Below, one piece after another: positions 11,685 to 12,779 of a stretch of 64,000 nucleotides of DNA. Source of the stretch: a virus (Duplodnaviria; Heunggongvirae; Uroviricota; Caudoviricetes); the IMG/VR virus record IMGVR_UViG_3300024341_000001; one strand, written 5' to 3'. The notes under the pieces are model-generated. The model was not told the origin of the DNA, ran no database searches, and was given only the letters and a program-made list of their open reading frames with translations. Position 1 is the stretch's first letter, and the number at the start of each line of letters is the position of its first letter. The position numbers and the translations under genes are program-made.

Positions 11685-11797
11685 GTCTTGGTACGTTTTC
11701 CTTTATTTATTTTGAACGGAGGAAGTATAACGTACTACGAAAAGAAACCTCCTTGGTGGACTCGCGGGGCAGTAACTCTAAAATTTTCATTTTAGAC

Positions 11798-11826
11798 TTG
11801 ACTATTCCCTTATCTTTTAGTATATT
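11798..11826 (+). promoter_or_regulatory. Sigma70-like promoter for the intron endonuclease, antisense within the intron core
   Basis: TTGACT-17 nt-TATATT, then AGGAGA SD and ATG at 11851. Confidence 0.7.
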
Positions 11827-11850
11827 TTGGATATAGGAGAAAAGATTACC

Positions 11851-12273
11851 ATGTCCAAAAAGACTACGAAGATAGAAAGCATTTATAGTTGGACCGCCGG
11901 CATCGTCGATGGTGAGGGTTCAGTTACATTAACACATAATCACTCCGGAGAGTACAGATCACCTGTGTTATCTGTAGCTAATACGTGTTTAGAAATTTTA
12001 TTACCGTTACAACGATATTTTGGCGGAATTATTTGTAATCATGGCCGTCAAAAGCGAAATTACATGATTGCATATAGTTGGAAAATAACTCGTGCTGATG
12101 CAATAGACGTAATGCATAAATTATTGCCTTATATTAGACATCCAAAGAAATCACGTCGGATGAAATTCATTATAAGATATTATGCTAAATTGACTGTTCG
12201 CAACGGTAAATACACCAAAGAACAAATACGACGAAAAAAACAATTTGAAAAAGAATTTTTCCAACTATCCTAG
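11851..12273 (+). CDS. Single-motif LAGLIDADG homing endonuclease, antisense in tmRNA intron
   Basis: WTAGIVDGEGS motif; the only clear plus-strand gene in 55 kb. Confidence 0.9.
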   Translation: MSKKTTKIESIYSWTAGIVDGEGSVTLTHNHSGEYRSPVLSVANTCLEILLPLQRYFGGIICNHGRQKRNYMIAYSWKITRADAIDVMHKLLPYIRHPKKSRRMKFIIRYYAKLTVRNGKYTKEQIRRKKQFEKEFFQLS

Positions 12274-12779
12274 TAACTCATAGTTTTTATACTTTAGAGT
12301 TCTATAAGTCGATAGCGAGCTGTTAAATTTCTTTACATACCCGACGGTGTTACCTCGCTATTAGCAGGGGTTTCGCCGTTTGAGCTTTCTTTTGTCATAT
12401 ATATTTCTATATAAGCGACCTAATACTAAGTCGAACCCCGGTCTTGCATGGATTTAATAAAAATTCATTCACATAGTTAGTTGTATTTTTAGTCGGTCGT
12501 CTGCTACAACTACATACTTAGGACTTACTTGTATTCGGACAAGTGGCCTACATCCCCGTTTATCGCACTCATAGCAATTGGGGCCTTGCTATCGAGTTCT
12601 CTTGTCAGCGATTAGGCCATTACGGCTACAGGTACTTCGACTAGTGCCAAAGCCTGTTCAAAAGTCATGTCAGATTTTTCTTCTGCACTTATTGTTTAAA
12701 CGGATTTTACGTCATCGGTTCACTGACGCTATGCATTTATACTACATCTCATTCAATCGATTCCTGTCGAGCCCAAATT

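What the first reader, a model, noticed from the sequence alone, without database searches (positions are those of the whole stretch)
11754..12774. Phage tmRNA interrupted in its T-loop by a homing group I intron
Seen: an Ala-identity acceptor (G3.U70, encoded CCA) and a tag ORF. The T-arm is complete only after removing 659 nt that show P1 with U.G, P7 and a terminal G. The intron carries a LAGLIDADG ORF on the opposite strand. Known: a T-loop group I intron was described in Clostridium botulinum tmRNA. Inferred: a phage ssrA intron with an antisense endonuclease is a mobile, selfish version, and unspliced tmRNA would be non-functional.
Basis: partly seen in the sequence, partly recalled or inferred. 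Interest (0 to 1): 0.85.

Follow-up and report, generated by a model that had tools for sequence, protein, structure and literature searches.

The report
Phage tmRNA gene split by intron
A lake-water phage carries a ribosome-rescue RNA (tmRNA) gene that is interrupted in its T-loop by a self-splicing-type group I intron holding a backward-facing homing endonuclease gene; this is a real, phage-borne example of an already catalogued kind of split tmRNA gene, with a splice site shifted by one base.

Summary
On the minus strand, exon 1 (12774..12429), a 659-nt insert (12428..11770) and a 16-nt exon 2 (11769..11754) together give a 362-nt RNA. ARAGORN calls this a tmRNA only after the insert is removed. 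Rfam's group I model is silent, but it also misses ORF-less relatives. A covariance model built from 41 other tmRNA T-loop introns hits the insert at 93 bits (E 8e-22). P1-P9, the G-binding P7 and the terminal G are all present. The + strand ORF (11851..12273) folds as an I-CreI-like single-motif LAGLIDADG enzyme.

Intron-form tmRNA genes are published (883 sequences, 36 with LAGLIDADG genes), so this is a new member of a known kind. This scan has already reported phage tmRNA introns with antisense endonucleases on other DNA. Particular to this case:
- All 54 relatives I mapped are inserted at T-loop position 7, and this one at position 8. A matching extra G in the guide sequence accompanies the shift.
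- The endonuclease's closest relative is free-standing beside an uninterrupted phage tmRNA gene.

Splicing, endonuclease activity and mobility are inferred, not shown.

The parts
11754..12774 (-). whole interrupted tmRNA (ssrA) gene
   Evidence: ARAGORN calls the spliced sequence a tmRNA. RF00023 matches exon 1.
12429..12774 (-). exon 1 (346 nt): 5' acceptor strand GGGCUCG, tag reading frame, pseudoknot region, T-stem 5' strand and the whole 7-nt T-loop UUCGACU
   Evidence: RF00023 37.4 bits, E 5.8e-13, ending at 12428. ARAGORN. Collinear with the uninterrupted tmRNA of L001.
12612..12686 (-). tag reading frame (resume codon GCA to TAA): AEEKSDMTFEQALALVEVPVAVMA*
   Evidence: ARAGORN tag call at 89-163 of the spliced RNA. 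Coordinates checked.
11770..12428 (-). group I intron, 659 nt, inserted after T-loop nucleotide 7 (position 8); ends in omega-G at 11770
   Evidence: Model R1 hit. Splice-site mapping against 54 relatives. Helix coordinates.
12302..12435 (-). ribozyme 5' half. P1 12433-12429/12420-12416 (U.G at 12429/12420). P2 12413-12408/12403-12398 with GAAA loop. P3 5' strand 12390-12385. P4 12379-12374/12349-12344. P5 region 12370-12353. P6 12343-12339/12320-12316. P7 5' strand U(C)GACU 12312-12307.
   Evidence: Covariance model R1, built without this sequence: 93.3 bits, E 7.6e-22. Family covariation: 98.3% of cells paired.
12267..12301 (-). P7.1 hairpin (AACUC 12301-12297 / GAGUU 12279-12275) and the family-conserved ACUAGGAU motif (12274-12267), which contains the antisense stop codon of the endonuclease gene
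   Evidence: Alignment with ORF-less relatives. Coordinates.
11851..12273 (+). homing endonuclease gene, 140 aa, single LAGLIDADG motif (AGIVDGEGS); it lies in the P7.2 position of the intron, antisense to the RNA
   Evidence: ORF list. Pfam LAGLIDADG_1 E 6.9e-4, below cut-off. PDB profile hits I-PanMI 1e-6 and I-MsoI 9e-6. AlphaFold2 pLDDT 95.6, Foldseek I-CvuI/I-CreI TM 0.72.
11770..11843 (-). ribozyme 3' half. P3 3' strand UUUUCU 11843-11838. P8 11835-11831/11825-11821. J8/7 11820-11804. P7 3' strand AGUCA 11803-11799. P9 11796-11789/11784-11777 with GAAA loop. GUUACUG tail with omega-G at 11770.
   Evidence: nhmmer profile of 52 other 3' halves gives a single hit at 11824..11764, E 1.2e-4. 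Same layout as L004, L007, L086 and L089.
11754..11769 (-). exon 2 (16 nt): T-stem 3' strand CCCCG, acceptor 3' strand CGAGUCC, discriminator A, encoded CCA
   Evidence: Unique in the window, 0 matches expected by chance. It completes the T-arm and acceptor stem.
11798..11826 (+). promoter-like site for the endonuclease gene (TTGACT-17-TATATT); its -35 box is the complement of the P7 3' strand; GGAG Shine-Dalgarno at 11836-11839
   Evidence: Consensus scan, 10 of 12 matched (the total number of sites is not above shuffles). The free-standing relative L001 has TTGACT-17-TATAAT at the same place (sequence).

Best explanation
The region is a phage-encoded tmRNA gene interrupted by a group I intron of the family that invades tmRNA T-loops.

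Proposed mechanism:
1. The gene is transcribed from the minus strand.
2. The intron folds into a subgroup-IA-like core (P1-P9 with P7.1).
3. An external guanosine attacks after U12429, which forms the U.G wobble with G12420 in P1.
4. The terminal G11770 then docks in P7, and exon 1 is joined to the 16-nt exon 2.
5. This restores the T-arm and acceptor stem of a 362-nt tmRNA that ends in an encoded CCA.

The phage encodes no SmpB, so the tmRNA would work with the host's SmpB.

On the opposite strand, from its own promoter, the intron expresses a 140-aa single-motif LAGLIDADG enzyme. This enzyme is expected to act as an I-CreI-like homodimer. It would cut intron-less tmRNA genes at the naturally palindromic T-arm DNA, and repair would then copy the intron and endonuclease gene into the cut allele (homing).

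Shown here: gene anatomy, family membership of the ribozyme by model score and covariation, and the endonuclease fold. Inferred: splicing, endonuclease activity and target, mobility, and tmRNA function.
For: - tmRNA reconstitution. The spliced sequence is called a tmRNA and the unspliced one is not. RF00023 ends at the 5' splice site. Exon 2 is unique in the window. The spliced 3' end is collinear with the uninterrupted tmRNA of L001, which has the same T-loop UUCGACU.
- Ribozyme 5' half. Model R1, built from 41 tmRNA-intron 5' halves and excluding the window, gives 93.3 bits, E 7.6e-22. On 49 sequences, 98.3% of pair cells are standard pairs against 33-46% when partners are slid, and 17 of 27 pairs show double changes.
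- Long-range helices. The family P3 is 6/6 complementary in 47 of 47 sequences, against 39% for shuffled assignments. The outer P7 pair is U-A in the window and 20 convergent-endonuclease relatives (nearly all Bacillota), and G-C in 26 others.
- Ribozyme 3' half. It matches a profile of 52 others at E 1.2e-4, as the only hit in the window.
- Shared layout. L004, L007, L086 and L089 have the same order: antisense ATG, 4-7 nt, P3', 2 nt, P8, J8/7, P7', P9, G.
- Experimental relative. The C. botulinum tmRNA intron of this family is reported to self-splice (PMC2729099, PMC11915505).
- Endonuclease. The D/E residues of the motif are invariant. PDB profile hits are LAGLIDADG enzymes. The model has pLDDT 95.6 and matches homodimeric I-CvuI, I-MsoI and I-CreI over its whole length.
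- No SmpB gene in the 215-kb genome.
Against: - Rfam RF00028 gives no hit at E<=10. The 423-nt ORF inside the core and the model's poor reach for this family explain this, but no general group I model supports the call.
- The window scores second lowest of 49 with R1, and the 3' half match is weak (16.7 bits).
- In the window, P3 (AGAAAG/UUUUCU) is A/U-rich and slipped one base from the family register. P8 is only 5 A-U pairs. An alternative P3'/P8 pairing (GCUUUC 11880-11875; UAUCUU/AAGAUA) cannot be excluded.
- I found no P10 pairing.
- There is no direct evidence of splicing, of an intron-less allele of the same phage, or of endonuclease activity.
- The tag peptide is atypical (ARAGORN: 'Tag not identified').
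Confidence: 0.85

Rival explanations
1. The insert descends from a tmRNA intron but no longer splices, or splices poorly. The phage tmRNA gene would then be a pseudogene kept only as the landing pad of a selfish endonuclease cassette.
For: The R1 score is second lowest in the family. P3 is slipped and A/U-rich, and P8 is minimal. The 3' half match is weak. The -1 position differs from all 54 mapped relatives. The tag is atypical.
Against: All core elements are present and pair: P1 with U.G, the A-rich J4/5, the P7 G-C pair with its bulge, the P9 GAAA loop and omega-G. The one-base shift of the splice site is accompanied by a matching extra G in the guide sequence and keeps a 7-nt T-loop. That pattern points to selection for correct splicing. 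Exon 2 is perfectly complementary to the 5' acceptor and T-stem.
Confidence: 0.1
2. The RNA functions without splicing as a two-piece tmRNA. The 16-nt 3' piece would be held to exon 1 by base pairing after the insert is removed by RNases, as in permuted tmRNA genes.
For: Two-piece tmRNAs exist (PMC11915505). Several relatives of the endonuclease sit beside permuted tmRNA genes.
Against: No known two-piece tmRNA is broken in the T-loop. A 16-nt acceptor piece held by 12 base pairs is unprecedented. The insert has a complete group I core homologous to introns that splice.
Confidence: 0.02
3. The resemblance is chance: there is no tmRNA and no intron, only an endonuclease gene between unrelated sequences.
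For: RF00023 is below its gathering score (37.4 vs 47), and RF00028 is silent.
Against: RF00023 E 5.8e-13. R1 E 7.6e-22. Exon 2 is unique with 0 expected matches. ARAGORN calls the spliced form. Dozens of homologous loci have the same anatomy.
Confidence: 0.01

Closest known systems
Intron-form tmRNA genes: group I intron in the T-psi-C loop (founding case Clostridium botulinum; catalogue of 883 unique sequences in 21 phyla, PMC11915505)
   Same: The intron lies in the T-loop, with a -1 U paired to G in P1 and a terminal G, and a 7-nt loop is restored. The ribozyme 5' half is homologous to Clostridium, Bacillaceae and gammaproteobacterial examples. A LAGLIDADG gene sits in the 'P7.1 region', as in 19 of the 23 endonuclease-bearing founding sequences whose insertion sites the paper describes.
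   Different: The genome is a virus record, and the paper's text names no phage intron form. The insertion is at loop position 8, which the paper reports only from Saprospiraceae, while all 54 ribozyme relatives I mapped are at position 7. The endonuclease gene is antisense, an orientation the paper does not discuss.
Collaborative homing and endonuclease-gene invasion of ORF-less introns (T4 mobE/I-TevIII, cyanophage F-CphI/psbA; PMC3984707, PMC2790892, PMC6083498)
   Same: The same endonuclease clade is found free-standing next to tmRNA genes that carry an ORF-less intron, in 21 convergent and 25 same-strand loci. It is also found next to uninterrupted tmRNA genes. The window's enzyme is sister to such a free-standing one, L001, with support 100/98.
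   Different: In the window the gene is already inside the intron. The enzyme family here is LAGLIDADG rather than HNH or EndoVII-like, and the target is an RNA gene. No cleavage data exist.
Homodimeric single-motif LAGLIDADG homing endonucleases I-CreI, I-CvuI and I-MsoI
   Same: One LAGLIDADG motif with the acidic residue, an alpha-beta-beta-alpha-beta-beta-alpha core, and a full-length structural match at TM 0.65-0.73.
   Different: Sequence identity is only 14-19%, the protein is shorter (140 aa), the Pfam score is below cut-off, and the target is unknown.
Phage group I introns with homing endonuclease genes (e.g. T4 td/I-TevI; review PMC3984707)
   Same: A self-splicing-type intron plus a homing endonuclease gene in a lytic-type large phage genome.
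   Different: Those cases interrupt protein-coding genes and carry the endonuclease gene on the sense strand in a peripheral loop. Here the host gene is a structural RNA and the endonuclease gene is antisense with its own promoter.

Membership tests
tmRNA (Rfam RF00023) | tRNA-like domain: 7-bp acceptor stem with G3.U70, T-arm, discriminator plus CCA | tested here: met
   GGGCUCG/CGAGUCC with G3.U70, CGGGG-UUCGACU-CCCCG, and ACCA encoded. These hold only after removal of 12428..11770.
tmRNA (Rfam RF00023) | resume codon and short tag reading frame ending in a stop | tested here: met
   ARAGORN finds GCA...TAA, a 24-aa tag with an ...AVMA end. The tag is not among known tags.
tmRNA (Rfam RF00023) | score at or above the curated gathering threshold (47 bits) | tested here: not met
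   37.4 bits, E 5.8e-13 on the interrupted gene, with the 3' strands missing from the match. The tool cannot scan a spliced construct.
tmRNA (Rfam RF00023) | pseudoknots PK1-PK4 | tested here: inconclusive
   The Rfam alignment has low posterior probability through the middle of the molecule. I did not model the pseudoknots separately.
Group I intron | 5' splice site after a U that forms a U.G wobble in P1; 3'-terminal G | tested here: met
   U12429.G12420 within CGACU/GGUCG; G11770 precedes exon 2.
Group I intron | P4-P6 domain with A-rich J4/5 | tested here: met
   R1 alignment: P4 5 of 6 pairs, P5, P6 5 of 5 pairs, J4/5 AAA. Family covariation; hit.
Group I intron | P3-P7 pseudoknot with the G-binding G-C pair and a bulged base in P7; P8; P9 | tested here: met
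   P7 is U(C)GACU/AGUCA. The family outer pair covaries U-A versus G-C, and P3 is complementary in 47 of 47 sequences. In the window, P3 needs a one-base register slip, and P8 is 5 A-U pairs.
Group I intron | match to the general Rfam model RF00028 | tested here: not met
   No hit at E<=10. ORF-less relatives L183, L185, L169 and L124 also fail at E<1e-3, while L167, L196 and L235 reach 30-40 bits. The model reaches this family poorly.
Group I intron | guanosine-dependent self-splicing | not testable with these tools
   Reported for the C. botulinum relative (PMC2729099). No RNA data exist for this phage.
Intron-form tmRNA genes (PMC11915505) | intron inside the T-psi-C loop, with boundaries that restore the loop | tested here: met
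   UUCGACU|intron|CCCCG, which is position 8 in the paper's numbering. Bacillota relatives at UUCGAU|U fix that numbering as position 7.
Intron-form tmRNA genes (PMC11915505) | score with the authors' tmRNA_intron covariance model | not testable with these tools
   The model is in the paper's Supplementary File S1, which is not held. My own model R1 stands in for it.
LAGLIDADG homing endonuclease | LAGLIDADG motif with a conserved acidic residue | tested here: met
   AGIVDGEGS; D20 and G23 are invariant and G21 and E22 nearly invariant (at least 90%) among 50 homologs.
LAGLIDADG homing endonuclease | Pfam LAGLIDADG_1 at or above the gathering score | tested here: not met
   20.9 bits against a cut-off of 23.1, E 6.9e-4.
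LAGLIDADG homing endonuclease | I-CreI-type fold | tested here: met
   pLDDT 95.6. Foldseek: I-CvuI E 1.3e-6, TM 0.72; I-CreI TM 0.73. PDB profile hits.
LAGLIDADG homing endonuclease | site-specific cleavage of the intron-less allele | not testable with these tools

The most novel reading that the evidence does not exclude
The window may show a mobile intron shortly after two rare events.
1. An endonuclease-gene move. The enzyme's nearest relative (50% identity, sister at 100/98) is free-standing beside an uninterrupted phage tmRNA with the same T-loop. The ribozyme's P6-P7 region, in contrast, looks like the ORF-less introns of Clostridia and Bacillaceae.
2. A one-base migration of the splice site from T-loop position 7 to 8, made possible by matched changes in the exon (extra C), the guide sequence (extra G) and exon 2 (lost U).

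If this is right, large phages reassort ssrA introns and their endonucleases and could carry them between bacterial phyla. The phage enzyme might also cut the host's own ssrA gene.
Probability: 0.25. Interest if true: 0.6.

Novelty: new member of a known kind. Interest (0 to 1): 0.35.

Why it matters
The finding adds a virus-borne case to a gene form so far catalogued from bacterial genomes. It is also a natural experiment on 5' splice-site choice: the site differs by one nucleotide from all its mapped relatives, with a compensating change in the internal guide sequence. Together with its relatives it forms a graded series:
- endonuclease gene beside an intact tmRNA gene;
- endonuclease gene beside a tmRNA gene with an ORF-less intron;
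- endonuclease gene inside the intron, on either strand.

This series could be used to test how mobile introns are assembled. Practically, it shows that tmRNA finders and Rfam's general group I model both miss such genes. Phage tmRNA genes will therefore be under-annotated.

Tried and rejected
- **Rfam RF00028 on 11300-13200** at E<=10 gave no group I hit. I do not take this as absence, because the model also misses ORF-less relatives.
- **blastn of the region against deposited phages** found no match.
- **Exact-pattern scans of IMG/VR** for an intron-less junction and for the 5' end of this tmRNA found nothing.
- **Neighbouring gene 12842-13171** as a synteny probe in IMG/VR found no relatives.
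- **Sequencing runs**: no RNA holder is listed, and all holders are lake-water metagenomes.
- **Laying contigs of four runs on the region** showed no joint across the intron and no variant allele, only short identical pieces.
I therefore could not compare with the Saprospiraceae position-8 introns.
- **Intron/endonuclease phylogeny conflict.** In the 5'-core tree the window falls with Bacillota-type introns, and the other five embedded-endonuclease introns fall elsewhere. The AU test does not reject holding the six together (p 0.104), and the window's branch is long. The conflict is a hint only.
- **Alternative P3'/P8 pairing** (GCUUUC 11880-11875; UAUCUU 11874-11869 with AAGAUA 11816-11811) inside the endonuclease coding region. 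I set it aside because L004, L007, L086 and L089 place P3' just outside the ORF. It is not excluded.
- **Rfam on 46000-55500** for the weaker R1 hits found nothing at E<=0.1.
- **Pfam Terminase_6N in the genome** found no hit. This is not informative.
- **No complex prediction was run.** Homodimerisation is inferred from the fold family only.

Full report
**What is there**

Read on the minus strand, the region begins at 12774 with GGGCUCG. It runs through a tmRNA-like body to CGGGG-UUCGACU (12440..12429). It then continues into 659 nt that do not complete the T-arm. The missing strands, CCCCG-CGAGUCC-ACCA, follow at 11769..11754.

- This 16-mer is unique in the 64-kb window, and no shuffle gives a match even with two mismatches.
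- ARAGORN finds nothing in the genomic sequence. Once 12428..11770 is removed, it calls a 362-nt tmRNA with the resume codon GCA and the tag AEEKSDMTFEQALALVEVPVAVMA*.
- Rfam's tmRNA model matches exon 1 at E 5.8e-13 and breaks off exactly at the proposed 5' splice site. The score of 37.4 bits is below the gathering score because the 3' strands are missing.

**Is the insert a group I intron?**

Rfam's general model RF00028 reports nothing at E<=10. I think the criterion is unsound, for two reasons. The 423-nt ORF sits inside the catalytic core. The same model also fails at E<1e-3 on ORF-less tmRNA introns of Clostridium, Gracilibacillus and others, and gives only 30-40 bits on three more.

I therefore collected relatives through the endonuclease protein. 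An nhmmer profile of the 5' part of the intron hit 90 of the loci fetched. From 41 of them, none from the window, I built a covariance model covering P1 to the 5' strand of P7.

- It hits the window at 12435..12302 with 93.3 bits, E 7.6e-22.
- On the resulting 49-sequence alignment, 98.3% of pair cells are standard pairs, against 33-46% when the 3' partners are slid by 1-3 columns.
- 17 of 27 pairs show changes on both sides.

The long-range helices, which the model cannot hold because P3 and P7 form a pseudoknot, were checked by script.

- The family P3 strands are fully complementary in 47 of 47 sequences, against 39% when strands are reassigned at random.
- The outer pair of P7 is U-A in the window and 20 convergent-endonuclease relatives (nearly all Bacillota), and G-C in 26 others.
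- A profile of 52 other 3' halves finds a single match in the window, at 11824..11764 (E 1.2e-4).

The helices in the window, with coordinates verified, are:

| Element | 5' strand | 3' strand | Note |
|---|---|---|---|
| P1 | CGACU 12433-12429 | GGUCG 12420-12416 | U.G at the splice site |
| P2 | 12413-12408 | 12403-12398 | GAAA loop |
| P3 | AGAAAG 12390-12385 | UUUUCU 11843-11838 | |
| P4 | 12379-12374 | 12349-12344 | |
| P6 | 12343-12339 | 12320-12316 | |
| P7 | U(C)GACU 12312-12307 | AGUCA 11803-11799 | |
| P7.1 | 12301-12297 | 12279-12275 | |
| P8 | 11835-11831 | 11825-11821 | |
| P9 | 11796-11789 | 11784-11777 | GAAA loop |
| omega-G | 11770 | | |

Weak points remain. P3 is A/U-rich and one base out of the family register. 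P8 is short. An alternative P3'/P8 pairing inside the ORF exists.

**The endonuclease**

The + strand ORF 11851..12273 has one LAGLIDADG motif.

- Pfam is just below cut-off.
- A profile of five homologs hits I-PanMI, I-MsoI and I-CvuI in the PDB.
- An AlphaFold2 model from 50 homologs (pLDDT 95.6) matches homodimeric I-CvuI, I-MsoI and I-CreI over its full length at TM about 0.7.

The stop codon lies inside the family-conserved ribozyme motif ACUAGGAU. The start codon lies 7 nt from P3'. The gene therefore occupies the P7.2 position, the 'P7.1 region' where the tmRNA database paper places most endonuclease genes. L004, L007, L086 and L089 share this layout.

A promoter-like TTGACT-17-TATATT precedes the gene. 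Its -35 box is the complement of the P7 3' strand. The free-standing relative L001 has TTGACT-17-TATAAT at the same place.

**Genome context**

The window belongs to a 215-kb virus record that CheckV rates complete. It carries 37 tRNA genes, a ribonucleotide reductase, a ligase and a tRNA nucleotidyltransferase, and no SmpB. The DNA occurs only in lake-water metagenomes.

**Comparison with what is known**

Intron-form tmRNA genes were described from C. botulinum and now number 883 unique sequences in 21 phyla. They occur at four T-loop subsites, and 36 carry LAGLIDADG genes (PMC11915505). The C. botulinum intron is reported to self-splice (PMC2729099). The window is a member of this kind.

Three things differ from the published description.

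1. **Virus record.** The paper screened RefSeq viruses, but its text names no viral intron form. I could not read its database table.
2. **Insertion site.** I mapped both splice sites in 54 relatives. All of these are at UUCGAU|U (position 7; Bacillota fix the numbering). The window is at UUCGACU|CCCC (position 8), which the paper reports only from Saprospiraceae. Relative to its kin, the window has an extra C in the exon, an extra G in the guide sequence and no U at the start of exon 2. The U.G wobble and the 7-nt loop are thus both preserved.
3. **Orientation.** The endonuclease gene is antisense. This is not unique. Eleven Anaerolineae position-2 introns and several viral or metagenomic position-7 introns have the same arrangement.

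**The wider picture of the endonuclease clade**

Of 80 bacterial genome loci fetched by endonuclease similarity, 71 have a tmRNA gene next to it. The arrangements are:

- free-standing and convergent behind a tmRNA gene with an ORF-less intron (21 loci, nearly all Bacillota);
- free-standing on the same strand (25 loci, mainly Gammaproteobacteria);
- beside uninterrupted standard or permuted tmRNA genes (17 loci, including the isolated Sphingobium phage Lacusarx);
- inside the intron, sense or antisense.

In the protein tree the window's enzyme is sister to L001, which is free-standing beside an uninterrupted tmRNA with the same T-loop (support 100/98). Both sit in a clade of six embedded and five free-standing genes from viral or metagenomic contigs. 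This fits the published models of collaborative homing and endonuclease-gene invasion (PMC3984707).

The ribozyme 5' core of the window is most similar to Bacillota-type introns. An AU test does not reject a common origin with the other embedded-endonuclease introns (p 0.104).

**Earlier notes of this scan**

After forming my reading, I found that the scan had already reported related findings on other DNA:

- phage tmRNA introns with antisense LAGLIDADG genes;
- an intron-split permuted phage tmRNA;
- an ssrA collaborative-homing module.

My results agree with them. They do not count as independent evidence.

**Verdict**

This is a new, phage-borne member of a known kind, of modest interest. 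The one-base shift of the splice site and the free-standing sister endonuclease are its most instructive features. Splicing and homing remain to be shown.

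Noticed in passing
window 53544-55866 (- strand): A helicase-like gene appears split. The N-terminal part is at 55866..55219 and the C-terminal part at 54110..53544. They are separated by about 1.1 kb holding a 286-aa ORF (55212..54352) with two LAGLIDADG-like motifs. Model R1 gives a weak hit at 54492..54359 (23.3 bits, E 2.7e-4). This is probably a second group I intron with a sense-strand double-motif endonuclease. Rfam finds nothing there.
   Followed up: partly
window 46999-47112 (-); G000:C1:43655-43777 and 42346-42487: Further weak matches to the tmRNA-intron 5'-half model: 17.2 bits E 0.009 in the window, and 37 bits E 3.4e-7 and 25.4 bits elsewhere in the phage genome. 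The genome may hold several related group I introns.
   Followed up: no
L004:607-1478 (- strand): A circularly permuted (two-piece) tmRNA gene whose T-loop is also split by a homologous group I intron with an antisense endonuclease gene. ARAGORN calls a permuted tmRNA only after the intron is removed. The tmRNA database paper treats 'intron' and 'permuted' as separate forms.
   Followed up: partly
L166-L245 (bacterial genome loci), L001, L016, L023, L249: This LAGLIDADG clade is almost always next to ssrA (71 of 80 genome loci). It often lies free-standing 33-130 nt behind a tmRNA gene that has an ORF-less T-loop intron: convergent in Bacillota, on the same strand in Gammaproteobacteria. It also lies beside uninterrupted tmRNA genes, for example in Sphingobium phage Lacusarx (annotated 'HNH endonuclease', overlapping ssrA). 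This looks like a collaborative-homing arrangement.
   Followed up: partly
window 11798-11850 (+) and L001:163-214: The endonuclease promoter and leader are the complement of P7', J8/7, P8 and P3'. The -35 box TTGACT complements AGUCAA, the -10 box lies in P8, and the GGAG Shine-Dalgarno complements the P3'/P8 junction. The promoter hexamers are kept in the free-standing relative L001, where no intron is present.
   Followed up: partly
L007:2875-2942 (- strand): A Pistol ribozyme match (59.7 bits, gathering score 34.5) lies about 390 nt upstream of the intron-containing tmRNA gene on a 64-kb viral contig.
   Followed up: no
window 50620-51687 (-) and whole genome: The phage encodes a tRNA nucleotidyltransferase-like protein (PHROG 2244) alongside 37 tRNA genes and the tmRNA, but no SmpB (Pfam PF01668 finds nothing in the 215-kb genome).
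   Followed up: partly
window 11615-11680 (- strand): A weak tRNA-like match (RF00005, 18.7 bits, E 1.2) lies about 75 nt downstream of the tmRNA 3' end. ARAGORN does not call it.
   Followed up: no
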